From a virus (Duplodnaviria; Heunggongvirae; Uroviricota; Caudoviricetes), in the IMG/VR virus record IMGVR_UViG_3300037466_001997, positions 1-64,000 of that record: 64,000 nt of DNA; one strand, given 5' to 3'. Both the position numbers and the translations under genes were made by a program. The notes under the pieces were generated by a model. It was not told the origin of the DNA. It worked only from the letters and a program-made list of their open reading frames with translations, and ran no database searches. Shown here piece by piece: positions 1,291 to 58,977 of this stretch. Each line of letters starts with the position of its first letter. Positions within the stretch are counted from its first letter, which is position 1.

Positions 1291-2082
1291 TCAATTGACA
1301 GCACAATGAAAATTTCCGGCATCCGTCTTGCACACGTCCGGAAGGTTATCAACAAGCCATTTATCGATCAATGCGTGGTCAACAAGCTGACTTGTTCCAT
1401 CATAGAACAAAATCTTTTTGCCGCCGATGACGGCGGTATTCAGGGTCATCACGACAGGCCGCTTGTCGATATATCCAACGGTTTCCATCAGCCCGACATT
1501 GTTCGATTCCCAACTGATTTGGCGACCTTCCTTGCTGTAATGCCACTTTTCCCAGAGCATAAAGCGCTCATTGCTGGTCGCCTCGACCATATATTCCACA
1601 TCTTTCAGGAAAGCGACCATCTGTTCATCGGTTCGCTTCAAAGACGGTTCCTGCTTGGGCGGCTTTCTGTTTTTGGAAGGCCCTTTGCGATATTTGGCAT
1701 CGATCTTGCCGAAATATACCAAGCACCGATGGAATTCACCATCTTTGTATATGTCAACATTGTCGTCCAGATAGAAAGCGTTGATGTCGGGTTCATCCTC
1801 CGGAAGCCACGCCAGAACTTCGGCCACAGAAGGCTTGAACAATCCATAATAGGCGCACGGAAAATCGACGTGGAACACCCGGATATGTTCAAATTTGGCT
1901 TCGGGAATAGGGGCACCATAAAAACTTGGTTCCCAGAGCATCGATTGTTTTCGAGGATGTACCGGATCGAACTTCCGCAATTGACCATTCTTCATGATCA
2001 GCGGTGTGATCTTCGGAATCAGGCTCATTAGCCGATCTTCGGAAATTTTTGTGGCAGTTCCCTTGCCTTCAATCCAGTTCAT
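1291..2082 (-). CDS. hypothetical protein
   Basis: 263-aa ORF with AGAGG-type RBS. No recognisable motifs. Confidence 0.55.
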   Translation of the reverse strand: MNWIEGKGTATKISEDRLMSLIPKITPLIMKNGQLRKFDPVHPRKQSMLWEPSFYGAPIPEAKFEHIRVFHVDFPCAYYGLFKPSVAEVLAWLPEDEPDINAFYLDDNVDIYKDGEFHRCLVYFGKIDAKYRKGPSKNRKPPKQEPSLKRTDEQMVAFLKDVEYMVEATSNERFMLWEKWHYSKEGRQISWESNNVGLMETVGYIDKRPVVMTLNTAVIGGKKILFYDGTSQLVDHALIDKWLVDNLPDVCKTDAGNFHCAVN

Positions 2083-2428: not shown

Positions 2429-2529
2429 AAGGGTGACTAAAAGGTTTCAAACACTTCTTTCCCAAGGTGCCCACCGGCAAATGGATTTGGTTGCCGCCAA
2501 ACTTGAAACCTTTTAGTCACCCTTCCCTT
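2429..2529. repeat. perfect 24-bp inverted repeat ggaagggtgactaaaaggtttcaa around a 53-nt loop
   Basis: 2429-2452 is the exact reverse complement of 2506-2529. Confidence 0.7.
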
Positions 2530-2660
2530 TCCTAGTCAAAGACAGGCGATAATTGGCGGTCATAGCCGACTGGCTGTTCACCATTATTCGCTGCTCGCAC
2601 CGGTCGTCACCGTCTGGCTGTTCAGTGCTTCGCTCTTTCTGTCTCCTTCCTACATTTACG

Positions 2661-2688
2661 AATATATACACATTCTAGAGGATGTCAA
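2661..2688 (-). promoter_or_regulatory. sigma70-like promoter cassette copy firing leftward into the 2100-2650 noncoding region
   Basis: tacatttacgaatatatacacattctagaggatgtcaa; minus strand TTGACA-16-TATATT. Confidence 0.5.
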
Positions 2689-2698
2689 CAGCCTTTTT

Positions 2699-3247
2699 TC
2701 AAAAAGATACGATTTCTTCGATAATGCTCCAAATTTCTTCATCAGACATTTTTTTGGAAAACGGGCATACCGATGGCGCTTCCTTGTGTTTGATGACATG
2801 GGCGAATTCCTTGACGATTTCACCACGGGTTAGCAGCGTGATCGTTGGAACCGGATATCTGATTTTGTGGAACATGTAGTGAGGGAGTGCATAGGAATCG
2901 CCAGCCGAGCATGAGAAGCTACAAACTTTGTATGGCTCGACTTCATGAAGGTATTGCGGCGGTTTGCCAGCGTCTTCCTTTTTACAGGAAACCTCCACCA
3001 GTTCATAATCGGCAAAAAACAGACGCTGGTAATCGTAAATTTCGTTTTCCAAACGACCTTTGATGATTTTTGAGACAAAATCATATCTGTGATCGTGGAT
3101 TTCGTCTTCATCCAAAATTGGCATAATTTCCGGATGATAGAAATGAAGTCTTGTTTCGGGAGTTATTTTCAACTGGATAAAACCAAGACCAAAATAGTAT
3201 GGTGTTCCCAGTGTTTTCAGAGTGTTGATATCGAGATAATCTGTCAT
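2699..3247 (-). CDS. hypothetical protein with His/Asp cluster (HFYHPE...HDHRYD), possible metal-dependent enzyme
   Basis: 182-aa ORF; no confident family. Confidence 0.5.
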   Translation of the reverse strand: MTDYLDINTLKTLGTPYYFGLGFIQLKITPETRLHFYHPEIMPILDEDEIHDHRYDFVSKIIKGRLENEIYDYQRLFFADYELVEVSCKKEDAGKPPQYLHEVEPYKVCSFSCSAGDSYALPHYMFHKIRYPVPTITLLTRGEIVKEFAHVIKHKEAPSVCPFSKKMSDEEIWSIIEEIVSF

Positions 3248-15791: not shown

Positions 15792-16258
15792 GCGAACATC
15801 CTAATTTCATGGCGTTCTGCCATTATAATTTTTCCGAGTTTATTCTTGCCAACACCATTGCAGACTCCCCAATAGGTGTCGCCCCATGTGTTGCCTTCAA
15901 TCAATTCGGCATCGTCGGTTGCCAGAAGCTTTTCCCGCATATCGGGAGCTTTGTATTTTATCTTTGTGAGACGTGCCATAACAGGGTCTCTGATTATGTC
16001 CCAGTTTCGACGAAGCTCAATCGTCTGGCCCCACGCTTTAACCTCTGATGGTTTAGCGTGTAGAAACGGAACATCGCCCCTTTTGAACGTCTTCACCGTC
16101 ATGTATTTGACTAGATGCAGCGTGACTTCGGCATTTGGCAGTTTATAGAACTGGTAGCCATGCTCCACCGTTGGCCAGATGACTTCACCATCTGGTACGG
16201 GCGAATACCAGAAATTGGATAGCCAGCGATATTCGCCGGAAAAACTATCAATCTTCAT
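15788..16258 (-). CDS. NADAR (YbiA/DUF1768) domain protein
   Basis: FSGEYRWLSNF...VEHGYQ...GDTYWGVCNGVGKNKLGKIIM matches NADAR family hallmarks. Confidence 0.75.
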   Translation of the reverse strand: MKIDSFSGEYRWLSNFWYSPVPDGEVIWPTVEHGYQFYKLPNAEVTLHLVKYMTVKTFKRGDVPFLHAKPSEVKAWGQTIELRRNWDIIRDPVMARLTKIKYKAPDMREKLLATDDAELIEGNTWGDTYWGVCNGVGKNKLGKIIMAERHEIRMFA

Positions 16259-17466
16259 GCGTCAGCCATGGTGTTGGTTTCGTCGGCGTTTCCGTGGAAC
16301 CAATGGGTAGCAGTTCGAACATGGTCCGCCCGCACATACTTCCCGACATTATTACGAAAATCTCGCCAACCGAAATTCCTCCGGTTTCGCATAACGAATC
16401 CTTCAACTCGTTCTGTGTCCATATTTTTAATGATGTCTTGGACGACTCGTTCGTCATAAATTCCCTCATACAGGACAGGCACTGATTTGATTCCGAGTAA
16501 GTTGAACCACTCTATCGTGTCGTCCCACGACAAGCATTCCAGACCATTCCAGACCGAAAAACCAAGGAAAAAAGAAGGAAGATTTCCATAGGCTATCGAG
16601 TGTTTGGCAAACAAATTTTCACCACAAACCCGCCAGTCTTCCGGCAAGTCATATGCAAAATTCTGTGCAAAATTTTTCGCCCAATCCCGTGACCAATGAT
16701 TGCGGCCATCGATGGAACGGGCGTGTAGATAACCATCCGAATAGATCGTTGTGTTTTCGCCGTCCATCTTTTCAGTGATAACCACTTGATTTCCCTCGAA
16801 AATCTGCATCGAAGAAATCATGCGGTCATCATCATTCATGCCGGGCGAAAACGGCAGATGGTAGGTTCTCGGATATTTCATGCGGTTGGTGTATAGGTCG
16901 AGAACACCACCTTCCCGCAAAATTTTTTGAACTGATTCGTCGCTGAACAATTCGCCACGGAGTCGCTGTCCGTTCTCTAGGACTATATCACCCCATTTGG
17001 TGTACACGACATCGGAATAGAAATGTTCGGGCAGGACCGGTTTGGTGATACCGGCATATTCACGAATTTGCTCTACCGATATAAGGGTCTTCTCGCACTC
17101 GATATGGTGAACACCGCAAACGGTAGCGCCATTGTCAAGGTAATAACCGCCATCAGCGAAAAGCCTTCGCTCTAGGATGTGATGTGCGTCTTGACCAACA
17201 CCACCACACACGACACATGCATGACGGTCCCTCGCAAAAACGCCTTCACGGAATTCATCCCTTGTTAACAGCTTTGACATGACTTTATCCAAAATAGATG
17301 GAAGGCGGATTTCTAGCGAATCAGAATGCCATCCTATCGCCGTACTTTCCGCCTTCCACTTCTTGTACTGGCATGTACAAGAAGGTTCTTTCGAGGAACG
17401 ATAAATCACCCACGACTCTATGTAGTGCCATGAGAGACATGGACATGTGTCGAACCCTCTAGACAA
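16255..17466 (-). CDS. fusion protein: N-terminal Cys cluster, HNH nuclease motif, ligase/capping-type nucleotidyltransferase domain (motif I KMDGEN)
   Basis: HACVVCGGVGQDAHHILER...CGVHH is HNH. KYPRTYHLPFSPG and TEKMDGENTTIY are the NTase motif I region. Track start is TTG; first in-frame ATG (MSKLLTRDEF) lies at about 17280. Confidence 0.55.
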   Translation of the reverse strand: MSRGFDTCPCLSWHYIESWVIYRSSKEPSCTCQYKKWKAESTAIGWHSDSLEIRLPSILDKVMSKLLTRDEFREGVFARDRHACVVCGGVGQDAHHILERRLFADGGYYLDNGATVCGVHHIECEKTLISVEQIREYAGITKPVLPEHFYSDVVYTKWGDIVLENGQRLRGELFSDESVQKILREGGVLDLYTNRMKYPRTYHLPFSPGMNDDDRMISSMQIFEGNQVVITEKMDGENTTIYSDGYLHARSIDGRNHWSRDWAKNFAQNFAYDLPEDWRVCGENLFAKHSIAYGNLPSFFLGFSVWNGLECLSWDDTIEWFNLLGIKSVPVLYEGIYDERVVQDIIKNMDTERVEGFVMRNRRNFGWRDFRNNVGKYVRADHVRTATHWFHGNADETNTMADA

Positions 17467-20524: not shown

Positions 20525-20660
20525 CTACTTGCCACTTCAAATCGATTTCTTCATCGATCTTGACGGCTGTCATGCTCCAAACATTGAACTTTCCATCGTG
20601 ACGTTCTGCAATGTCCATTGGAAGGTTGTCTGTAAACCAATTTGATTGAATGTTACTCAT
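20472..20660 (-). CDS. hypothetical protein, 62 aa
   Basis: ORF. Confidence 0.45.
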   Translation of the reverse strand: MSNIQSNWFTDNLPMDIAERHDGKFNVWSMTAVKIDEEIDLKWQVVGVFHTKEEAEEFVSNA

Positions 20661-21859
20661 TGGTATTCGGTAGTCTCGCCTTTTCTATTCAGATAATCTT
20701 CGGATACGTATTTTAGAATGATACGACCCAGTTCAGGATGACTTCCCTCATGCGAGGGAGTCGCTACCAGACCTTCACGGATGTTCGAACCTTCACCCAA
20801 ACTGGTGCGGCCATCAATGTAGGGCAGGATTTCGTCTTCTTTTTCCACCACGGCTATGACGGGCACCGTCTGGAAATTGGCATTCTCTAAAAATTCATAT
20901 TTGCCTAGGGCGAACACATATTCGCCACCGAATTTCACGTCAAAGGCACGGAATTCCGGCTTTTCCAGACCGTAATGCAAATCCTGAACGCCCTTGCCGA
21001 AAATTTCACCGAAAACATAATATTTTTTCTCACGCTCTATGTTTTCGGAGTACATGGAAATTTCGGTAATCAGATACGCCAGCTTTTCAAATAGCTTGTT
21101 TTCCATGACCGTGCGAACATAGAGATTGTTCCTGATGTTGCCTTGGTTATGTTTGAACACCAATCCCTTGGCACCCAGACCTTTGGAAAATACGATGAAT
21201 GAACCATCAAAATCCGGTAGCGTGAATAGTTCCGGATGTTTGAAACCCTGAACGAACCCGATGCCGCAAAACGTGCCATGCAGCTTTTCTGTCAGAAAAA
21301 TGGAACGGCCTGTGCCATTCAACACACCCGGAAATTTTTTGGCATTCTCGATATCGTAGTGACCAATCTTGTCCTGTCCGATGTACAGAAGATCGCCAGC
21401 CATGTTGGCCGGAAGAACCGGTTCATATTTCGTGATACCAAGGAATTCCGAGACATCATCACCCAGACAGAAACAATCGGTGTCCGTCTCATTCTGGACG
21501 ATGCAATCCATTTCGAAATAATCAACATTCCGAATGGTCGGGTGACCAAACATGATGCCTTCGGAAGTGATGCCACGCAATTTGATTGGCTTCACTCTAT
21601 CGCCATGTTTACCAGAAAGAATGCCCATGCCCTTGTTATCATCCCAGAAACCTTGTCTTAGAAGATATTCCGGAACGATAGAGTCGGACTGAACATAGAT
21701 TACCCAGTCGTTCTTTTTGTAGCGATGCGAGCCGTCTTCAAGTTTGGCGGATACAATCTTGTAGTCGTATCCTTTGAGCTTGACGATTGACAGACGGTCG
21801 GCGTTAGGGTGGTCGGTAGATGACTCCACCGCCATAATACGAGATTCAAATTTTGACAC
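20657..21859 (-). CDS. ATP-dependent RNA ligase (Rnl2/Rnl5-like motifs) with N-terminal OB/tRNA-binding-like domain
   Basis: Motif I KLHGTF, motif III FGEIFGKG, motif IV REGLV, motif V ILKYV. N-terminal HPNADRLSIVKL resembles the Myf/EMAP tRNA-binding fold. Confidence 0.6.
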   Translation of the reverse strand: MSKFESRIMAVESSTDHPNADRLSIVKLKGYDYKIVSAKLEDGSHRYKKNDWVIYVQSDSIVPEYLLRQGFWDDNKGMGILSGKHGDRVKPIKLRGITSEGIMFGHPTIRNVDYFEMDCIVQNETDTDCFCLGDDVSEFLGITKYEPVLPANMAGDLLYIGQDKIGHYDIENAKKFPGVLNGTGRSIFLTEKLHGTFCGIGFVQGFKHPELFTLPDFDGSFIVFSKGLGAKGLVFKHNQGNIRNNLYVRTVMENKLFEKLAYLITEISMYSENIEREKKYYVFGEIFGKGVQDLHYGLEKPEFRAFDVKFGGEYVFALGKYEFLENANFQTVPVIAVVEKEDEILPYIDGRTSLGEGSNIREGLVATPSHEGSHPELGRIILKYVSEDYLNRKGETTEYQ

Positions 21860-22634: not shown

Positions 22635-23690
22635 CTAGTATTTAGGCGTCGGGATCATGTTCTGAATTATACGCTCTGCCTGTGTTTGACGAACATCAAA
22701 ATCCGCATTTAGGATGCATTCGAAGTTCTTGCCGTATTCCTTTAACTTGCCGACAAGCTTGTCATAGAATTGCCAGCGAGTTTCTTCCACTTCCATAACA
22801 CGAAATCCATCCTGAATCCATGGTACAGATGGGGCTAGAACAATGTATTTGTCGATATGTTGTTCTTTTGCAACATCATAGAATTCCGAATTATCTTCAC
22901 CCGGAAACCAGATATCGGCATACATGGCAGTAATCAGCGCTTCCGTGTCCGAGACGATGATTGGAAAATTTGCGTTTTCCTTCGTCTGGTCAATCAGGAA
23001 TTGCTGTGTGCGCTGGATAATCCGGAAGTCTTCCCGGTCCAGTTCGTTCTTGCGATTCACAGACAGGATGCGACCGTATTCGGGGAGTGTGTCATAGAGC
23101 TTGGACAGCTTCTTGATCATGGTGGACTTGCCACAGGATTCCGGCCCGACAATCGCCACCGTCTGCACCAAGTCGTGCTTGGTGTATTCGGGCAGAGATT
23201 TGAACATGGAATAAAAATTATTTCGGACCATCGTGCCCGAAATCGACTTCATTTCCCTGTCCGGATCAACCGGAACCCAACGTGCGTGAAGCTCTTTGGC
23301 GATACGTTCACCGTAAAGATCGGATGTGAACACAATATCGATTTTTTCGAGCGTTGATGGCCCAAATTCATTGGTCAAAATTTCACGAGTGGAGGCAAGC
23401 CAAGCCTGCCAATATGATTCATCCGTGATTGTACCGTTTTCATCCTTGTCGGCGTGTTTGTCCAATTCCGGCTGTGGTAAAATGAACAGGGTACAAAATT
23501 CTTCCTGTTCGCCAATTGCCTTTTCAACCCATTCTTTTCTTTGTTCGAAAGAGAACGGATCATCTGGCGTTGTGCCAATCAGCACAATCAATTCATCGCA
23601 GTTTTTGGCGGCAACTTTAAGCAGAAGTTCATGCCCCTTATGCAGGGGCAAAAACTTTCCTAGCGTAAAACCAGTTCTATAATAATCCAC
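22635..23690 (-). CDS. nadR: NadR-like bifunctional NMN adenylyltransferase / ribosylnicotinamide kinase (no HTH domain)
   Basis: N-terminal GFTLGKFLPLHKGHELLL (HxGH nucleotidyltransferase); C-terminal VAIVGPESCGKSTM Walker A. Confidence 0.75.
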   Translation of the reverse strand: MDYYRTGFTLGKFLPLHKGHELLLKVAAKNCDELIVLIGTTPDDPFSFEQRKEWVEKAIGEQEEFCTLFILPQPELDKHADKDENGTITDESYWQAWLASTREILTNEFGPSTLEKIDIVFTSDLYGERIAKELHARWVPVDPDREMKSISGTMVRNNFYSMFKSLPEYTKHDLVQTVAIVGPESCGKSTMIKKLSKLYDTLPEYGRILSVNRKNELDREDFRIIQRTQQFLIDQTKENANFPIIVSDTEALITAMYADIWFPGEDNSEFYDVAKEQHIDKYIVLAPSVPWIQDGFRVMEVEETRWQFYDKLVGKLKEYGKNFECILNADFDVRQTQAERIIQNMIPTPKY

Positions 23691-26164: not shown

Positions 26165-26250
26165 TGGTGGGCGCAGAAGGAGTCGAACCTCCACAGCCGA
26201 AGCCGCTGGTTTACAGCCAGTTAGTCTCGCCACATGACTAGTGTGCGCCC
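26165..26250 (-). tRNA. tRNA-Tyr (anticodon GUA), type II
   Basis: Acceptor GGGCGCA/TGCGCCC, loop CTGTAAA, long variable arm, T-arm GGAGGTTCGACTCCTTC, CCA. Confidence 0.65.
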
Positions 26251-27281: not shown

Positions 27282-27383
27282 TATAGTGTCCTCAAGGAAT
27301 AGGGGGTGAACTTCACAGTCCTATTTATAAATCCCGATTCCTATAAAGGCCCTAGTTTAGCCAATTCTAACATTACAAATTTT

Positions 27384-27683
27384 TTATTTTTTGATTTTGT
27401 CTGCTAGAGACTTCAACTTTTCTTTACCGGCTTCTGTCAAAGCATCCAAGTCCGGCTTGTGTGCCTGAACTGATGTCGTGATCGCTTCGCCGGTTTCTTT
27501 GGCTTTCTCTTTGGCGGCTTCTGCCGCTTCCTTGGTCTTCTCGTAGAGATTGCCGCCAAGTTCAGCCGCTTTGTCGAGAATCTTGGATTCCTCGATCTTG
27601 TCTTTCATGGCCTCGCCAGCTACAGAAGCCTTTTCCTTGGTCCAATCCCAAGCATTCTTCCAGTCAGATATCTTGAAGCTCAT
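27384..27683 (-). CDS. hypothetical helical Lys/Glu-rich protein (CsbD/YtxH-like composition)
   Basis: 99-aa ORF. Confidence 0.5.
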   Translation of the reverse strand: MSFKISDWKNAWDWTKEKASVAGEAMKDKIEESKILDKAAELGGNLYEKTKEAAEAAKEKAKETGEAITTSVQAHKPDLDALTEAGKEKLKSLADKIKK

Positions 27684-27693
27684 AATATATTCC

Positions 27694-27936
27694 TTAGTTC
27701 AAGCGTTTTCTATAGCCAGCAAACGACCGACCAAGACGATAAATTGAATTTAATGTCTCGATTGTGTCGTCATTGATCTTCACGATAAGTGAAGTGAGTT
27801 GAAGTTTCCCATTGGTACAGTTAGGATGATCCTTGATGTTACCCATGAGAAACAAGGTTCCTTTGGCATCTGGTGGCTGGAAAAAACCTCTTTTGTCAAC
27901 TATCGCCCAATTCTCTATCTTGTACTCTGGTTTCAT
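27694..27936 (-). CDS. hypothetical protein, 80 aa
   Basis: ORF. Confidence 0.45.
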   Translation of the reverse strand: MKPEYKIENWAIVDKRGFFQPPDAKGTLFLMGNIKDHPNCTNGKLQLTSLIVKINDDTIETLNSIYRLGRSFAGYRKRLN

Positions 27937-28189
27937 TGGGCAAATTTTTCCTTAGCTCTATAAGGTCACTGGCTTTCCATTTAAGGCGTTGTATATTTTG
28001 AACTTGACCGGCTGTCAAGCGTTTTCCACGATACTTTTCATTAAGCCAATTCACTTCGGCGTAAATTTTGTCAATTTGTTCCGTTAATTCTTGCCGGGTC
28101 ATCGCATGTATGTCTTTAACCGCTTTGTTGAAGGCATCAACAACTCGTTTGTTTTTGGCTAATTCGACAGCCTTTTTAGGGTCCATCAT
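27896..28189 (-). CDS. hypothetical protein, 97 aa
   Basis: ORF. Confidence 0.5.
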   Translation of the reverse strand: MMDPKKAVELAKNKRVVDAFNKAVKDIHAMTRQELTEQIDKIYAEVNWLNEKYRGKRLTAGQVQNIQRLKWKASDLIELRKNLPNETRVQDRELGDS

Positions 28190-28209
28190 CCTAATTCCTC
28201 GGCCCGGAT

Positions 28210-28245
28210 GTACAAAAGAAAATCCCCGACACAGTGGCCGGGGAG
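28210..28245 (-). terminator. terminator downstream of tRNA-Val
   Basis: CCCCGACACAGTGGCCGGGG followed by ATTTTCTTTTG on minus strand. Confidence 0.45.
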
Positions 28246-28277
28246 GGACATGAATAAATTCATGTCGTTGAAGATTT

Positions 28278-28352
28278 TGGTAGGCGATGATGGAATCGAA
28301 CCACCGACATTCTCCGTGTAAAGGAGGCGTTCTACCGCTGAACTAATCGCCC
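28278..28352 (-). tRNA. tRNA-Val (anticodon UAC)
   Basis: Acceptor GGGCGAT/ATCGCCT, D-arm TAGTTCAGCGGTAGAAC, loop TTTACAC, T-arm GGTGGTTCGATTCCATC, CCA. Confidence 0.6.
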
Positions 28353-28362
28353 ATCAATCTAT

Positions 28363-28650
28363 TTAGTCGAGAATACCAAGAATATCATCTTCTGTCAAGA
28401 TAAAATATTCATTTCCTTCAACAGAAATCTTGGTAGCTGAATTTGGAGCAATCAAAACTTGATCGCCAACCGTGACATTCATCAAAATTGGCTGGCCTGA
28501 TTTGTTTGTTCCGCCCGGCCCAACCGCTACAACTTCGCCTTCAAGAGGCTTGCGCTGTGCATTTTCTGGTAGAAGAATGCCGCCCGGCGTTCTGGTGGCG
28601 GCTTCCTTTTGCTTGACCAATACTCGATTGCCAAGTGGTGTAAAGTTCAT
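28363..28650 (-). CDS. groES: GroES co-chaperonin (Hsp10)
   Basis: Full-length match to GroES pattern: PLGNRVLVK...GGILLPE...GEVVAVGPG...GDQVL. Confidence 0.85.
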   Translation of the reverse strand: MNFTPLGNRVLVKQKEAATRTPGGILLPENAQRKPLEGEVVAVGPGGTNKSGQPILMNVTVGDQVLIAPNSATKISVEGNEYFILTEDDILGILD

Positions 28651-28668
28651 GTGTGTTCCCTGTGTCTG

Positions 28669-28744
28669 TGGCGACCCCGGCTGGATTCGAACCAGCGACC
28701 TCTAGCTTAGAAGGCTATTGCTCTATCCTCTGAGCTACGGAGCC
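28669..28744 (-). tRNA. tRNA-Arg (anticodon UCU)
   Basis: Acceptor GGCTCCG/CGGGGTC, D-arm TAGCTCAGAGGATAGAGC, loop CTTCTAA, T-arm GCTGGTTCGAATCCAGC, CCA. Confidence 0.6.
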
Positions 28745-28797
28745 GAGATTATTTAGACAGGATATATGAAAAGGTTCAAAAAGTCTAGCGAAATCTA

Positions 28798-29025
28798 TCA
28801 ATAACCATCAAGTTTCACGAATTGAGACTTCGCCACGGTTTGCAGATAGACGCCGCATCTGTACCATGCACGGGAAACAAGCCTATCGGTTCGATTCGCC
28901 TGCACCGATTCGGCCTTCGACATGGCGACATCGGAAACGCCTTCCATAAAATTCACCAGACCGACTTCATTGATGATGGCTTCGATGGTAAATTTTTCCT
29001 CGACAGTCATTTTTCGATTATTCAT
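28798..29025 (-). CDS. hypothetical protein, 75 aa
   Basis: ORF. Confidence 0.45.
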   Translation of the reverse strand: MNNRKMTVEEKFTIEAIINEVGLVNFMEGVSDVAMSKAESVQANRTDRLVSRAWYRCGVYLQTVAKSQFVKLDGY

Positions 29026-30791: not shown

Positions 30792-31970
30792 CTACAGAGT
30801 GGCTATCAGATTGTCAATCCACTCTGAACGTCTTTTCTTAAGTTCTTTTCCCAGTTCTGGGCCGGGCTTAAAACCTTCTGTCATTAGATCACTAGCATTG
30901 ACTGGCCAAGGACGAATTTCCCAACTTGCTGTTTTGCCGGGGAAATCGGAAGTGAAAAATTTATCCCACTTTTCCCAATCCTTGGTTCTTTTCAGTTTAA
31001 CAAGGTCCATCACGAACATGCACAGGAAATCATTCTTGTAGCAGTGTGACAGGATTTCGAAATTTGTTGTTCTCGAATGGTTCATCATGAAATAGGTCTT
31101 GACAAACTCTATCTCATAGGATGGTGCACGAAACCGATTCGTCATCGCATTCAGGATACGATGTTCGTTGTAGTCAAACAGTGCAATCAGTTTCAGCATC
31201 CACCATTCCTCATGGTTGAAATCCTTCACCATGGGATGATGCGGCACCGGAATGCCCAGTTGCGGCCCGATGTAATTTACCAGAAGGCGAGCAATGGTGA
31301 TGCACTTTGGCTGTGACAGAATTTTGTGCAGTTCTGCCCAAATGCGTTCGCCGGAAATTTTATCCAGACCGTGGCAAGTATCCTGAATCACCTTCATGTT
31401 TGCGTCGAAGGTGGCATCAAAGTTCACTGTTTTCATGCGACCAAGGAAGCGAAAATAGCGAAGGATTCGCAGATAGTCTTCCTCGATACGATCACGGGCA
31501 TTGCCGACAAACCGCACAACGCAATTTTTCAGATCGTCCGCACCGTTGAAATAGTCATAGACCGTGCCATCCTTGTCCATGAACATGGCATTAAACGTGA
31601 AGTCACGCCGGGCTGCATCCAATTCCCAGTCAGTATGGAATTCGACTTCGGCGTGACGACCGTTCGTTTCCTTGTCGATTCGGAGAGTCGTGATTTCGAA
31701 TGGTTCACGGCCCACCATGACCGTAACCGTGCCATGTTGTAGGCCAGTCGGAATGACGTTATATCCAAGAGCTTCAAACTCCTGAATGGTCTGTCCCGGC
31801 CTTGCCGTAGTGGCAATGTCTATGTCTTTTGGGTCTTTGCCAAGTAGAAAGTCACGAACAGCACCACCAGCGATGCGAGCTTCGAAGCCTGCATCCTCTA
31901 GAATCGTCATAACTTTCGTGGCGTTCTCATTCATATTATCTGAAATACCAAAAGAAATAGGAAATGTCAA
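30792..31970 (-). CDS. cca: tRNA nucleotidyltransferase (CCA-adding enzyme), class II
   Basis: GGAVRDFLLGKDPKDIDIATTARP head motif plus HD-like body, 392 aa. Confidence 0.8.
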   Translation of the reverse strand: MTFPISFGISDNMNENATKVMTILEDAGFEARIAGGAVRDFLLGKDPKDIDIATTARPGQTIQEFEALGYNVIPTGLQHGTVTVMVGREPFEITTLRIDKETNGRHAEVEFHTDWELDAARRDFTFNAMFMDKDGTVYDYFNGADDLKNCVVRFVGNARDRIEEDYLRILRYFRFLGRMKTVNFDATFDANMKVIQDTCHGLDKISGERIWAELHKILSQPKCITIARLLVNYIGPQLGIPVPHHPMVKDFNHEEWWMLKLIALFDYNEHRILNAMTNRFRAPSYEIEFVKTYFMMNHSRTTNFEILSHCYKNDFLCMFVMDLVKLKRTKDWEKWDKFFTSDFPGKTASWEIRPWPVNASDLMTEGFKPGPELGKELKKRRSEWIDNLIATL

Positions 31971-43959: not shown

Positions 43960-44634
43960 CTACTTGATACTCATTTTTTCAGTATCAAGAAAATTCGCTG
44001 ATACCGAATCGTTTGTAGAATAATATCTCATTGTCGAACTAGCCATAGCAACCGCTGTCTGTTGGAACTTGTTCGGGTCGTAGCTATTCAACGTTCCCTT
44101 TGACGACACGATCTTAGCGCCACCCTTGAATGCCTCGATATTGGCACCAAGGTAGACAACCGGCCAATTTTTCTTCGCAAATTTTGCAAGAATTTTTTTG
44201 GCATCGTTCAAATCATTGGATATCGATGTGTTTTCGTCGCCATCCGTGAGAATGATGAACTGAACCAAATCGTCCTTTTTCAGTCCGTGCGCCTTTGGCA
44301 GGGAACCGAACTGAACAATAGCATCATACAGGGGAGTGGAGCCACGGGGCGCAATCGAAACATCTGATGCCGATAACGGGGTCCATTCACTCGATTTCAC
44401 ATAGCGATGCTGCAAAATGGAATCATGGTAGGCGGTCGTGGCAAACGTGCCAGAAAATACGTTCGTAAAAGGCTGTGATTCTCTGTCAAAGAATGCGAGG
44501 TTAACCTTGAACGGAACCTTTTCTTTGTTGAGTCTGGCAACATATTGATTCAGTGTGCTGATCGTTTCGGACCAGTGTGCCAGCATTGAGTATGAACGGT
44601 CTACAAGAATGTAAAGATGAAGTAATTTATCCAT
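43960..44634 (-). CDS. von Willebrand factor A (vWA) domain protein
   Basis: MIDAS motif ILVDRSYSM, GSTPLYDAI and ILTDGDEN segments. Confidence 0.65.
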   Translation of the reverse strand: MDKLLHLYILVDRSYSMLAHWSETISTLNQYVARLNKEKVPFKVNLAFFDRESQPFTNVFSGTFATTAYHDSILQHRYVKSSEWTPLSASDVSIAPRGSTPLYDAIVQFGSLPKAHGLKKDDLVQFIILTDGDENTSISNDLNDAKKILAKFAKKNWPVVYLGANIEAFKGGAKIVSSKGTLNSYDPNKFQQTAVAMASSTMRYYSTNDSVSANFLDTEKMSIK

Positions 44635-44671
44635 GCGGTAGTTATAAAAATCCTTAATGTAATAGAAAATT

Positions 44672-44709
44672 AGACAAAAATAAAGGGAGGGGCTAGATTC
44701 ACCCCTCCC
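44672..44709 (-). terminator. strong rho-independent terminator at the 3' end of the ORF-free transcript
   Basis: GGGAGGGG-TGAATCTAG-CCCCTCCC followed by TTTATTTTTG on minus strand. Confidence 0.6.
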
Positions 44710-46045
44710 GTGACAGTCTTTGATTGGATTATGGTTTGGGTGCTAGCCAAACTTTCCCAACGTATCCACTTCCTTTTGGGAAGTAACTGCTAAGACTTCT
44801 TTGTATTCGACATTTGCAACTTACTCGGCACATTCTTTTCTGAATGAACTAGCTAGGCTCACACTAGAACTTCCTGTACCAAACCAACGTACCTTGCGGG
44901 CTTGCTGGCACCAGATTACCTTTCGGTTCTGGCATTAAGTCCCTTCGTTGCAAACCGGAACGGTCTTTGCGTTTTTTGTGACATCGCAGGAATTGCACCT
45001 ACACTGTCAGCTCCTGAAAGCTGATGCCCTACTATTAGGCAAGATGAACCCACTAAGACGTGCCGTTCCAGTTGTTTCATTACCTTTTGGGTAACGAAAT
45101 GCAACACGCCTCTTGCTTTCGACTTGCGGTCTACTCACCGATTTTCAGGATTCTGTCCCTTTCGGTCCAGTGCCCTTCATTCTGGATATAGCTCTTGCCT
45201 GCCGGGCTTGAACCATATTCCTATACGTTGACATTCGCCCCTCTGTTAGTTGCATTGGCTGCATTGGATTTGCGGTCCAATTTAGGTGGCAATGCTTATC
45301 CACCATATCGCCCTTTCGGGGACGACAACCTCTAACATTAAGGACTAGCTCCGGTTCCACCGAAGCACCCTCGACAAGGGTTAGTCCGTACTTGCTTGGC
45401 TTCATCCATCTTGCGATGAACGGGGAGTCTTATGGGAAGAACATCCCTCTGCTACCGGTTGCCCGATGCAGTGCCCCAAGCGGCAATTCGTTAAACTGGC
45501 TACCGGGGTTGGATTCGATACCAACATACACCCTCTAAACGAGGGTGGCTTTAACTTAAGCTACCCGATAATAGAACTTTCAGGACAGGTGTCTTATCCG
45601 TTTGACGGGATTGTTAGACGACGATGTTTTTCGACGTGGACCGATTAGGGACGAACCTTTGTCTCTACCAGCATCTACTTATCGGATGGACATTTAAGCC
45701 TAGTTGTTCTTTTCAATGGGTTCCAACGCCACTGCTAGTTTACAACACTCATTTCCTGTTATCAGTTTGGGAAAGGAACTTGGTGAAGTTCATTACCGAA
45801 GCTGATTTTTGTACTCTACTCTTTTATATATCTCCTGTCAACACTTTTTTTCGTTTTCTTCGAACTTTTTCTAAGGAACTACCGAAAGAATTTCGAACTT
45901 CTTTCCCCCTGTTCCCCGCTCACTTCCGAACGCCAGAAATGAACTGTTCAAACGATACCTTTATGATCTATTATCGGTTCAAAAAGGTTGTCAAGCCTTT
46001 TCTTTGGGGATATAGACTGTGGTTGACCGCCACCGGTTCGTTGTT
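44710..46045 (-). ncRNA. candidate large (~1.3 kb) structured noncoding RNA with its own promoter and terminator
   Basis: No ORF of convincing quality in any frame over 1.35 kb in an otherwise gene-dense genome. Consensus promoter at 46050-46078 and terminator at 44672-44709 on the minus strand. Several GAAA-loop hairpins, e.g. ACC-GAAA-GGT. Confidence 0.45.
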
Positions 46046-46049
46046 TGAA

Positions 46050-46078
46050 TATATAGGCGGCTCACGATTTCCCGTCAA
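46050..46078 (-). promoter_or_regulatory. sigma70-like promoter TTGACG-17-TATATA driving the ORF-free transcript
   Basis: Minus strand reads gcTTGACGggaaatcgtgagccgccTATATAttc. Confidence 0.5.
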
Positions 46079-46120
46079 GCCGTCTTTTCGTATTTTTAGG
46101 ACTTTTTTTCCTGTGGATAA

Positions 46121-46558
46121 CTAGGTCATCCGGCTTGCGGTATAGCAATCGATACCGGCTTCACGCATGACGGCGGCAAAAGCGTGGCAGTAGGCTTCCT
46201 TCTTCTGCATCGATTGCGAATTCTCCCGTGCGCTCATGTAGTGGCAACGCCGGTAGTCGTCGTAACGACCGTAGCCGTTTTCCTTCATCCAAGTAGCGAT
46301 ACCGCCACGGGAAGGACGAATCTCGACCCAAGCAAGACCGCAAACGCCATCCTCGACGTAATATGTGGGCCTCGAATAGTCGATTTCGTTGGAAAACAGA
46401 CCCTTTGCATCACCGACGATCATCGGAGTCGGGCGACATGCCGCAATCGCAGCCTGTCCAGCCGCATCGGCCTTGGCAAACAGAGCCTTGCACTCACGCT
46501 TGCCCATCGGCACAGCCTTGGCCCGTGCCTTCTTGCCGAACTTGTCCATATCAATCAT
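46121..46558 (-). CDS. hypothetical protein, 145 aa
   Basis: ORF. Confidence 0.5.
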   Translation of the reverse strand: MIDMDKFGKKARAKAVPMGKRECKALFAKADAAGQAAIAACRPTPMIVGDAKGLFSNEIDYSRPTYYVEDGVCGLAWVEIRPSRGGIATWMKENGYGRYDDYRRCHYMSARENSQSMQKKEAYCHAFAAVMREAGIDCYTASRMT

Positions 46559-49504: not shown

Positions 49505-50620
49505 TTAAACGTCTCTTTTTCCACCATAGAGATGTTTAATGACGCCAAACCTAGGAATTCCGTCCGGCGTGTAGTTCTGGAATCGACAGAGCGCATCGCC
49601 GCCGATAAACTTTTCCTTGGTCGCCAGCCGTTCCCGGTTTTTATCCATGGAACCGTCAATGCCGGATTTGAATGTTCGACCATCGGGTAGGCGCAACACA
49701 ACCTTCTTGGCGATGCCTTCCCAGTTGCCGATACCCGACTCGATATCGACCACTTCGAATTCCTCTGTCTGAAAGCTCTTGTGCTTCATAAGGTGTTTCG
49801 AACGCTTATGCTCGTATGGGCCTTCCGGAGTGCGAAGCATGATGCCTTCGTAGCCAGCTTCCGCATATGCGCCATGGGCTTCGTCCAGTTCAGCAAGCGA
49901 ATCCATGAATCCAGTCGGGACAAGCTTGATATTGTCACCGATGAAAGCGCCCTTGGCGTTCAAATCGGTTAACAGAGCGTGACGCTGAACGAATGTCAGT
50001 TCCGGGCGGGCGGGCACGAACACATCGTAAATGTGATACTCGACCTTCTCTCGGATTTCCGATTTCTCTGCCTCGGAAAGCTCGTCATATTTCTGTTGCC
50101 GGATCATCGACACCAGCTTGTCGAAATCCTCTTTCAGGTCGTGATTGTAAAGCTCACCATCAAAGATCACGTCATCAGACGATAGCTGTTCCTGAATATG
50201 TCCGGTCGTGAAGAACGGCTTCCCCTCACGGGAAAATGCGCCTTCCGGTTTCAGGATGCAGCGAACGCCGTCCAGCTTGGGCTGATGAAAATATTGTCCG
50301 TCTTTGGTGTTGCCGGGCTTGTAGGTCGCCGCTAGCATGGGTTGGAAGATATTGGAGCGGGAAGCCGTTTCGAGCGTGTCAGAATATTTTCTGGCCAGCT
50401 TTTTTTCGTATTGCGCCAGCACTTCGGCTAGGGCTTGCTGTTCCGGCGTCGTGGCATTGGCCTTGCCAATATTTTTACCTTCAACCGTAGTCCACTCCGA
50501 TGTGACCAGATTTCCGTCCAAGATACCGGATGTGGTTCGATACCGGTTGTTTTCGGTTTCCATGTACCAGACACGAATCTTTCCCTTGGAATCGATGTTA
50601 TAGAGTTGTTTATGAAGCAA
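49505..50620 (-). CDS. ATP-dependent DNA ligase
   Basis: Motif I KLDGVRCIL, about 370 aa, typical phage ligase size. Confidence 0.75.
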   Translation of the reverse strand: MLHKQLYNIDSKGKIRVWYMETENNRYRTTSGILDGNLVTSEWTTVEGKNIGKANATTPEQQALAEVLAQYEKKLARKYSDTLETASRSNIFQPMLAATYKPGNTKDGQYFHQPKLDGVRCILKPEGAFSREGKPFFTTGHIQEQLSSDDVIFDGELYNHDLKEDFDKLVSMIRQQKYDELSEAEKSEIREKVEYHIYDVFVPARPELTFVQRHALLTDLNAKGAFIGDNIKLVPTGFMDSLAELDEAHGAYAEAGYEGIMLRTPEGPYEHKRSKHLMKHKSFQTEEFEVVDIESGIGNWEGIAKKVVLRLPDGRTFKSGIDGSMDKNRERLATKEKFIGGDALCRFQNYTPDGIPRFGVIKHLYGGKRDV

Positions 50621-58898: not shown

Positions 58899-58977
58899 TG
58901 GTTGCGGAGGCAGGATTTGAACCTGCGTAGATCGCCTTATGAGGACGTGCTGGGACCGGACTCCAGTCTACTCCGCA
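58899..58977 (-). tRNA. tRNA with CAU anticodon (Met or Ile2)
   Basis: Acceptor TGCGGAG/CTCCGCA, loop CTCATAA, T-arm GCAGGTTCAAATCCTGC, CCA. D-arm is irregular. Confidence 0.5.

What the first reader, a model, noticed from the sequence alone, without database searches (positions are those of the whole stretch)
44672..46078. A 1.35-kb ORF-free transcription unit with consensus promoter and strong terminator: candidate large structured ncRNA
In a genome with almost no intergenic space, 44710-46045 has no credible ORF on either strand. The only ORFs above 60 aa are low-complexity, lack an RBS, or lie antisense. On the minus strand a canonical TTGACG-17-TATATA promoter (46050-46078) sits just past the stop of the upstream gene. 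A GC-rich hairpin plus U-run terminator (44672-44709) sits just before the vWA gene, so the unit is delimited like an independent gene. The sequence contains several GNRA-type GAAA-loop hairpins and lies within a tRNA-rich region. This is the genomic setting described for large phage ncRNAs such as GOLLD and ROOL, but at about 1.3 kb it is longer than those.
Basis: partly seen in the sequence, partly recalled or inferred. Interest (0 to 1): 0.8.

Follow-up and report, generated by a model that had tools for sequence, protein, structure and literature searches.

The report
Phage GOLLD RNA with structured leader
The ORF-free 1.4-kb stretch is a real large structured RNA gene, but it belongs to the already known GOLLD family of phage RNAs (which form RNA-only nanocages), here preceded by tandem promoters and an unusual ~310-nt structured leader that explains the extra length.

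Summary
Window 44635-46120 is non-coding on both strands, has sigma70-type promoters upstream and ends in a hairpin plus T-run. It is not a new RNA class. Rfam's GOLLD model (RF02032) matches 44689-45112 (minus strand) end to end at 158.8 bits (gathering score 150). Ten related jumbo-phage contigs carry the same RNA directly upstream of the same vWA-like gene. The universally conserved body is about 810 nt (45494-44685). It consists of a 5' domain of about 390 nt (35 of 58 pairs with compensatory changes) and the 3' domain (64 of 101), with a degenerate tRNA-like insert in the linker. All of these are known GOLLD traits. The extra length has two sources. One is a promoter region of about 270 nt with three conserved boxes; the proximal one (45841-45813) is conserved in every relative whose sequence covers that region. 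The other is a leader of about 310 nt. The leader contains a 175-nt domain with covariation support that is found in only a subset of relatives, and a cloverleaf tRNA-like element ending in GCCA that abuts the GOLLD body. The suggested recoded-ORF reading is rejected. Verdict: a new member of a known family, with a possibly new leader variant. Moderate interest.

The parts
46050..46078 (-).
   Evidence: Sequence. Both hexamers are conserved in L065, L002 and L061, with similar boxes in L067 and L084; not conserved in the closest relative L059.
45965..45994 (-). P2, weaker promoter-like box (TTGACA-18-TAGATC)
   Evidence: Read from the sequence. The -35 hexamer and TAGAT are conserved in L002 and partly in L061 and L065. 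The 18-19 nt spacing and poor -10 hexamer make it the least convincing of the three.
45813..45841 (-). P3, proximal promoter (TTGACA-17-TAGAGT) preceded by an A-rich tract; predicted start near 45806
   Evidence: Scanner hit with 10 of 12 matches. GTTGACA-N17-TAnAnT is conserved in all 8 aligned sequences that reach it, and also in L063 and L084.
45761..45806 (-). Leader hairpin a
   Evidence: Folds alone at -11.2 kcal/mol, z = -2.6. Shared with L059 and L084.
45585..45759 (-). Accessory leader domain (175 nt) closed by the helix ACAGG/CCUGU; contains the conserved motif GUCGUCUAACAA-hairpin-UAAGACACC
   Evidence: 38 pairs, 12 with compensatory changes; 99.3% of cells paired against 44% or less for slid registers; 0 of 500 shuffles reach the observed values. 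Covariance model R1 finds it only in the window, L065, L002 and L061, plus a truncated copy in L063. No Rfam family matches it.
45497..45570 (-). tRNA-like element: cloverleaf with 7-bp acceptor stem and encoded GCCA tail, 5-nt 'anticodon' loop and 8-nt T-loop. It directly abuts the GOLLD body.
   Evidence: MFE cloverleaf at -29.7 kcal/mol, z = -4.55. Called by ARAGORN only at relaxed threshold, not at default and not by Rfam. Acceptor and D stems covary across 6 genomes. A homolog is present in L084.
45113..45494 (-). GOLLD 5' domain
   Evidence: Aligns in all 10 genomes at a near-constant length of 387-397 nt. 58 pairs, 35 compensatory; 91.7% paired against 44.7% or less for slid registers. 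A profile built from it also matches the region 5' of phiCbK's GOLLD core, E = 7e-14.
44689..45112 (-). GOLLD 3' domain (the part modelled by Rfam RF02032)
   Evidence: 158.8 bits against a gathering score of 150, model positions 1-416 of 416, E = 1e-42. 101 pairs, 64 compensatory, across 11 sequences including phiCbK.
44977..45049 (-). Degenerate tRNA-like insert in the GOLLD linker
   Evidence: Rfam tRNA 33.4 bits (gathering score 29). Not called by ARAGORN at default settings. Imperfect acceptor stem and no 7-nt anticodon loop. Relatives hold better tRNAs, or arm-deleted remnants, at the same position.
44675..44709 (-). Terminal GOLLD hairpin (conserved loop UGAAUCUAG, covarying stem) that doubles as an intrinsic terminator with a T-run
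   Evidence: Terminator scan. It corresponds to Rfam model positions about 404-416. The stem covaries and the loop is conserved in 11 sequences.

Best explanation
This is the GOLLD RNA gene of an uncultured jumbo phage. It sits in a tRNA/RNA-repair island. What is shown: host-type sigma70 promoter boxes lie upstream (P3 at 45841-45813, with P1 and P2 further upstream). No terminator-like site lies between them and the hairpin plus T-run at 44709-44675. So the predicted primary transcript is about 1.13 kb from P3, and up to about 1.4 kb from P1. Its 3' 810 nt (45494-44685) are a canonical two-domain GOLLD body with a degenerate tRNA-like module in the inter-domain linker. Its 5' ~310 nt are a structured leader made of a hairpin, an optional 175-nt domain and a tRNA-like cloverleaf ending in GCCA. 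What is inferred: like the solved GOLLD RNAs, the body assembles into a homo-oligomeric RNA nanocage, with the linker tRNA-like module facing the interior. The cloverleaf that abuts the body probably acts as a processing signal. RNase P would cut at its 5' side and a tRNA 3'-end nuclease at its 3' side, defining the mature GOLLD 5' end. This resembles GOLLD genes that lie directly downstream of true tRNAs. The biological role of GOLLD itself remains unknown.
For: Full-model Rfam GOLLD match above the gathering score. The same RNA sits directly upstream of the vWA-like gene in 10 related contigs, with full-model scores of 115-168 bits in the nine scanned with Rfam and a profile match in L084. 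Covariation supports the 3' domain, the 5' domain, the leader domain and the tRNA-like element. The body length is constant (387-397 nt plus 415-438 nt) while the leader varies from about 0 to 470 nt. The 5' domain is homologous to that of phiCbK's GOLLD, and phiCbK-family GOLLDs are in the published alignment. P3 is conserved in every relative whose sequence covers that region. No minus-strand terminator-like site lies between P1 and 44709. Promoter matches are strand-specific: 19 against 0. The literature reports a conserved 3' domain and variable 5' domain, location in tRNA arrays, a tRNA or pseudo-tRNA in the linker, env-38 lying downstream of tRNA-Met, and 10- to 14-mer cages (PMC12286853; PMC12990946; PMC6582537).
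Against: There are no expression data, so the start site, the processing step and whether the leader stays attached are all inferred. Only the window and L063 reach the Rfam gathering score; the other relatives score 115-150 bits, so this clade sits at the edge of the curated model. Two helices of the Rfam model are deleted or shortened here. The 175-nt domain lies upstream of the tRNA-like element in the window but downstream of it in L002, L061 and L065. Cleavage at the cloverleaf would therefore detach it here but not there, which makes a single role for it awkward. The structures tested for covariation were derived from the same alignments, which inflates the comparison with slid registers.
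Confidence: 0.87

Rival explanations
1. The unit is a multi-RNA precursor. The 175-nt leader domain is an independent small structured RNA, the cloverleaf is a separate tRNA-like RNA, and GOLLD is a third product. All three are released by tRNA-type processing. This differs from the best explanation only in giving the leader pieces roles of their own.
For: The 175-nt domain is closed by its own helix and has covariation support. It is present or absent independently of GOLLD, and it lies on either side of the tRNA-like element in different genomes. The cloverleaf has an encoded CCA and a stable fold. The window encodes a CCA-adding enzyme and RNA ligases.
Against: The domain was never found away from a GOLLD leader in 346 kb of searched loci. 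No separate promoter or terminator delimits it. There are only four full copies, so the statistics are thin. There are no expression data.
Confidence: 0.3
2. The leader is evolutionary debris with no function of its own: decayed tRNA genes and spacer between a promoter cluster and GOLLD.
For: Leader content is mosaic and dispensable. L067 has almost none, L059 and L084 lack the 175-nt domain, and in L063 an endonuclease-like gene occupies the junction. The tRNA-like element fails tRNA criteria.
Against: Compensatory changes maintain 12 pairs of the 175-nt domain and the acceptor and D stems of the cloverleaf. Blocks of 21-35 nt that are identical apart from one variable position each survive at about 65% overall identity. 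The encoded GCCA tail is kept in at least six genomes.
Confidence: 0.12
3. It is a new class of giant structured ncRNA, distinct from and longer than GOLLD and ROOL.
For: The ORF-free interval is 1.49 kb, longer than described GOLLDs. About 310 nt of the structured leader match no Rfam family.
Against: The 3' 424 nt match Rfam GOLLD end to end above the gathering score. The 5' domain is homologous to that of phiCbK's GOLLD. The body conserved across relatives is about 810 nt.
Confidence: 0.02
4. It is a protein-coding gene with stop-codon recoding, joining ORFs 45145-45405 and 44916-45107 across a TGA.
For: The two ORFs share a frame in the window.
Against: The 86-aa frame has 1-5 stops in every relative. 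Indels are of 1, 2 and 4 nt. Mismatches are spread about evenly over codon positions, for example 24/23/33 in L059. The longest stop-free stretch across the 86-aa segment is 27-64 aa in relatives. No Pfam match. The same bases form covarying RNA helices.
Confidence: 0.01

Closest known systems
GOLLD RNA (Rfam RF02032), e.g. env-38 (833 nt, 14-mer cage, PDB 9MEE) and Streptococcus agalactiae GOLLD (700 nt, 12-mer)
   Same: Full-length match to the 3'-domain model. Two-domain body of about 810 nt. Variable linker between the domains. Phage location inside a tRNA island. The last hairpin has a conserved loop.
   Different: Scores only just above the gathering score, with two model helices shortened or missing. 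The 5' domain shows no detectable sequence similarity to env-38, although the sequence-only test is uninformative. It carries a structured leader of about 310 nt and tandem promoters, which are not mentioned in the papers I could read.
GOLLD of phiCbK-like Caulobacter phages (already in the published GOLLD alignment)
   Same: The only cultured-phage DNA match. Rfam GOLLD 165 bits with a tRNA in the linker. Homologous 5' domain.
   Different: phiCbK has larger insertions in the 3' domain. A permuted tmRNA gene on the opposite strand lies where the window has its leader. Different flanking genes.
Mycobacterium GOLLD inside tRNA arrays, with a pseudo-tRNA or tRNA-Phe in J13/15
   Same: An embedded tRNA-like module in the linker that does not look like a working tRNA, and a location within a large tRNA gene cluster (PMC6582537, PMC12990946).
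   Different: A bacterial chromosomal or horizontally transferred cluster rather than a jumbo phage. No leader tRNA-like element or accessory domain is reported there.
tRNA-like processing signals (tRNA punctuation; MALAT1-mascRNA type). Named from my own knowledge.
   Same: A non-decoding cloverleaf with acceptor stem, T-arm and CCA sits at the exact boundary of a long ncRNA. That is where RNase P or RNase Z cleavage would create the long RNA's end.
   Different: Here it lies at the 5' boundary, in a phage, and cleavage is untested. This is a statement about how it may work, not about membership.
ROOL RNA (the other phage nanocage RNA)
   Same: Same genomic setting (phage tRNA islands) and probably the same kind of quaternary assembly.
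   Different: No Rfam ROOL match anywhere in the window. Unrelated sequence and fold.

Membership tests
GOLLD RNA (RF02032) | Covariance-model score at or above Rfam's gathering score over the whole model | tested here: met
   158.8 bits against 150, model positions 1-416 of 416, E = 1e-42.
GOLLD RNA (RF02032) | Conserved 3'-domain secondary structure maintained by compensatory changes | tested here: met
   101 consensus pairs, 64 with changes on both sides, in 11 sequences including phiCbK.
GOLLD RNA (RF02032) | A separate, less conserved, structured 5' domain of about 300-420 nt directly upstream | tested here: met
   382 nt. 58 pairs, 35 compensatory; 91.7% paired against 44.7% or less for slid registers. 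Homologous to phiCbK's 5' region.
GOLLD RNA (RF02032) | Variable linker between the domains that can hold a tRNA or pseudo-tRNA | tested here: met
   tRNA-like insert at 45049-44977, 33.4 bits. Relatives hold tRNAs of 46-55 bits at the same site.
GOLLD RNA (RF02032) | Phage or prophage location, near tRNA clusters | tested here: met
   22 tRNA genes in the window. Phage protein families. Relatives lie on viral contigs of 240-262 kb.
GOLLD RNA (RF02032) | RNA-only homo-oligomeric nanocage (10- to 14-mer) | not testable with these tools
   Needs mass photometry or cryo-EM of the transcript.
GOLLD RNA (RF02032) | Expression that rises during phage lytic growth | not testable with these tools
   The host is unknown and no transcriptome is available.
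tRNA (for the leader element 45570-45497) | Cloverleaf with 7-bp acceptor stem and 3' CCA | tested here: met
   MFE cloverleaf, z = -4.55, GCCA tail. The acceptor stem covaries.
tRNA (for the leader element 45570-45497) | 7-nt anticodon loop with U33, a canonical 7-nt T-loop, and detection by tRNA models at normal thresholds | tested here: not met
   5-nt loop on a 7-bp stem and an 8-nt T-loop. No ARAGORN call at default settings. No Rfam tRNA match at E of 1 or less. So it is tRNA-like, not a tRNA.
ROOL, HEARO, OLE, group I/II introns, RNase P RNA, tmRNA | Match to the Rfam model | tested here: not met
   No match at E of 1 or less in 44500-46250.
Protein-coding gene (with or without TGA recoding) | Reading frame conserved in relatives, codon-position bias, protein homologs | tested here: not met

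The most novel reading that the evidence does not exclude
This jumbo-phage clade carries an extended GOLLD variant. A covariation-supported 175-nt accessory domain and a CCA-ended tRNA-like cloverleaf are functional additions to the nanocage RNA. They could serve as maturation signals, as cargo or tethers, or as a separate new small RNA family co-expressed with GOLLD. If so, they link GOLLD mechanistically to tRNA processing and repair enzymes encoded in the same island.
Probability: 0.3. Interest if true: 0.55.

Novelty: new member of a known kind. Interest (0 to 1): 0.35.

Why it matters
GOLLD is one of the largest bacterial or phage ncRNAs. Its cage-like structure has been solved, but its function is unknown. 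This locus adds a well-delimited clade of 11 jumbo-phage genomes with fixed synteny (GOLLD directly upstream of a vWA-like gene). It also offers natural 'experiments'. The linker tRNA ranges from intact through degenerate to arm-deleted. The leader is present or absent, with or without the accessory domain. In one genome an endonuclease-like gene is inserted at the leader/body junction. All of this lies in an island that also encodes RNA ligases and a CCA-adding enzyme. These contrasts give testable handles on how GOLLD is matured and on whether its tRNA modules matter. The finding does not reveal a new RNA class.

Tried and rejected
(1) Near-identity search of 24 kb of the window against cultured phages found no match. 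(2) Two metagenome-contig scans both returned nothing: one with a two-block 5'-domain pattern and one with the 24-nt 3'-core motif. (3) A genome-contig scan with a degenerate 3'-core motif returned 14 loci, but none carries this 5' domain and only short 3'-motif matches were seen, so it gives no host clue. (4) Viral-contig scans with 15- to 18-nt 5'-domain blocks returned mostly chance hits; only L009 (the same contig as L002) was a real relative. (5) search for related loci with the vWA protein found nothing in viral contigs. The route that worked was protein homologs followed by their encoding contigs. (6) Comparison with the solved env-38 GOLLD: the sequence was taken from the paper's supplement. 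A sequence profile of the 5' domain gave no match, but the 3' profile barely detects env-38 (E = 0.007), so the test is uninformative. Only a short shared motif, GUGAGGGUAACAC, was seen by eye. (7) The original GOLLD paper and the Mycobacterium GOLLD paper are not held in the library. (8) I looked by eye for the published intermolecular kissing-loop pairings but could not map them without the published numbering, so I make no claim about them. (9) Y RNA-like (YrlA) and group I intron readings of the leader were considered, but there is no Rfam match at E of 1 or less.

Full report
OBSERVATION. On the minus strand, window 44635-46120 lies between a hypothetical gene (46121-46558) and a vWA-like gene (43960-44634). 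It contains only three ORFs of 60 aa or more: 86 aa, 63 aa and an antisense ORF of 166 aa. None survives comparison with relatives. The 86-aa and 166-aa frames carry 1-7 stops in every relative that aligns there. The 63-aa frame is stop-free in five of nine relatives, but none keeps the ORF. Indels are mostly not multiples of three, and substitutions are spread about evenly over codon positions. There is no Pfam match. The window carries 22 tRNA genes, all on the minus strand. It has 19 sigma70-type promoter matches on that strand, none on the other, and about one expected by chance.

IDENTITY. A whole-window Rfam scan finds GOLLD (RF02032) at 44689-45112, minus strand. The score is 158.8 bits against a gathering score of 150, E = 1e-42, and the match covers model positions 1-416 of 416. 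No other large-RNA family matches. Rfam models only the conserved 3' half of GOLLD, so the question became what the remaining ~950 nt are.

RELATIVES. Cultured phages give only one DNA match: phiCbK-like Caulobacter phages, over the start of the 3' domain and the linker. phiCbK itself has a 165-bit GOLLD with a tRNA in the linker, and it is already in the published GOLLD alignment. Homologs of the flanking vWA-like protein led, through their encoding contigs, to ten related metagenomic contigs, most of them from jumbo phages of 240-262 kb. All ten have a GOLLD directly upstream of the vWA-like gene. Nine gave full-model Rfam scores of 115-168 bits, and L084 was matched by profile. The synteny holds down to about 46% vWA identity and is lost at 39% and below. 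Neither the metagenome collection nor reference genomes hold further relatives.

ANATOMY. A ten-sequence alignment shows that everything from about 45494 to 44685 aligns in all genomes, with nearly constant lengths. The 5' domain is 387-397 nt and the 3' domain is 415-438 nt. That gives a body of about 810 nt, within the 700-833 nt of the structurally characterised GOLLDs.

Covariation supports both domains. In the 5' domain, 35 of 58 consensus pairs have compensatory changes, 91.7% of cells are paired against 44.7% or less in slid registers, and 0 of 500 shuffles reach the observed values. In the 3' domain, 64 of 101 pairs have compensatory changes. A profile of the 5' domain also matches the region 5' of phiCbK's core (E = 7e-14) and, weakly, two other viral GOLLD loci. 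So it is a shared GOLLD 5'-domain type.

The linker holds a degenerate tRNA-like module at 45049-44977. It scores 33.4 bits, is not called by ARAGORN, and has an imperfect acceptor stem and no 7-nt anticodon loop. At the same position relatives range from tRNAs that ARAGORN accepts to remnants lacking the anticodon arm. Embedded tRNAs and pseudo-tRNAs in this linker are a known GOLLD trait.

WHY THE INTERVAL IS LONGER. Upstream of the body lie two things. The first is a promoter region (46078-45806) with three conserved boxes. P3 (TTGACA-17-TAGAGT, 45841-45813, preceded by an A-rich tract) is conserved in every relative whose sequence covers that region. P1 is conserved in a subset, and P2 is weak. 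No minus-strand terminator-like site lies between P1 and 44709, so transcripts from these promoters would read through to the GOLLD terminator.

The second is a leader of about 310 nt (45806-45495), whose content is mosaic among relatives and ranges from about 0 to 470 nt. In the window it has three parts:
- a hairpin at 45806-45761;
- a 175-nt domain at 45759-45585, closed by its own helix. It has 38 pairs, 12 of them compensatory, and 99.3% of cells are paired against 44% or less in slid registers;
- a cloverleaf at 45570-45497. It has a 7-bp acceptor stem, a D arm, a 7-bp stem with a 5-nt loop, a T arm with an 8-nt loop and an encoded GCCA tail (-29.7 kcal/mol, z = -4.55). The GOLLD body follows two bases later.

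A covariance model of the 175-nt domain finds it only in the window, L065, L002 and L061, plus a truncated copy in L063. It lies upstream of the cloverleaf in the window but downstream of it in L002, L061 and L065. It is absent from L059, L066 and L084. The cloverleaf is present in at least seven genomes, and its acceptor and D stems covary. It fails normal tRNA detection, so it is tRNA-like and not a tRNA.

MECHANISM. Shown: this is a GOLLD family member with promoter boxes, a terminator, two covarying domains, a linker tRNA-like module and a structured leader. Inferred from the solved GOLLD structures (PMC12286853, PMC12990946): the body assembles into an RNA-only cage of 10-14 subunits, with the linker module inside. 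Also inferred: the cloverleaf at the leader/body junction serves as a tRNA-type processing signal (RNase P on its 5' side, a tRNA 3'-end nuclease on its 3' side) that sets the mature 5' end. This would parallel env-38, which lies just downstream of tRNA-Met, and GOLLDs that sit inside tRNA arrays. Whether the 175-nt domain stays attached, is a separate small RNA, or is dispensable cannot be decided here. GOLLD's biological role is unknown. The surrounding island encodes two RNA ligases, a CCA-adding enzyme and an NMN adenylyltransferase, which fits a link to tRNA metabolism but does not show one.

COMPARISON AND NOVELTY. Every testable defining feature of GOLLD is met, so I file this as a new member of a known family. 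The points not covered by Rfam or by the papers I could read are the tandem promoters, the junction cloverleaf with CCA, and the optional 175-nt domain. These may amount to a clade-specific variant, but they rest on four to seven sequences and no expression data.

SCORES. Interest is 0.35. It is a correct and well-delimited detection of a rare, structurally remarkable RNA, with some new comparative handles on its maturation, but it is not a new kind of element.

Noticed in passing
window 16255-17466(-), 20657-21859(-), 22635-23690(-), 30792-31970(-), 49505-50620(-): The window is a tRNA/RNA-repair island. It encodes two RNA ligases, an NMN adenylyltransferase, a tRNA nucleotidyltransferase (CCA-adding enzyme) and an ATP-dependent DNA ligase (PHROGs), interspersed with 22 tRNA genes that are all on the minus strand.
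   Followed up: partly
L063 2300-3044: In this relative a T5orf172 endonuclease-like gene (2511-3041) sits exactly between the GOLLD leader and the GOLLD 5' domain, which starts at 3044. The leader there has a promoter near 2308 and the GTCGTCTAATAA...TAAGACACC motif at about 2445-2480. This looks like a mobile-gene insertion inside the RNA's transcription unit.
   Followed up: partly
window 37951, 36787, 29596, 9993, 7522, 2688, 61886 (minus strand, -35 start): Near-identical promoter cassettes, TTGACAttctctagatttcgatTATATTcg, recur along the window. They look like one temporal class of phage promoters.
   Followed up: no
GOLLD linker in L063 3496-3567, L066, L069 445-515, L084 1016-1090, L002/L061/L065: The linker tRNA differs in apparent anticodon between relatives: Gln-UUG, Pro-UGG, and a UUA 'stop' call at relaxed threshold. 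In three genomes it has lost the anticodon arm. This suggests it is kept for its shape and not for decoding.
   Followed up: partly
window 26165-26248 and 58899-58977: ARAGORN calls tRNA-Tyr and tRNA-Ala here (the Ala call has its anticodon at the unusual position 27), but Rfam's tRNA model does not report either at the gathering score.
   Followed up: no
window 27282-29021: A 1.7-kb stretch with no ORF of 100 aa or more on either strand and only two tRNA genes. It is larger than the GOLLD gap by that criterion and was not examined.
   Followed up: no
L001 (phiCbK) 1714-2032, minus strand of the locus: A permuted tmRNA gene lies on the opposite strand directly upstream of phiCbK's GOLLD, in the place where the window has its leader.
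   Followed up: no
L084 about 420-470: The P3 region of this relative carries a tandem duplication of the -10 segment (AGAGTAGAGTACAA, twice).
   Followed up: no
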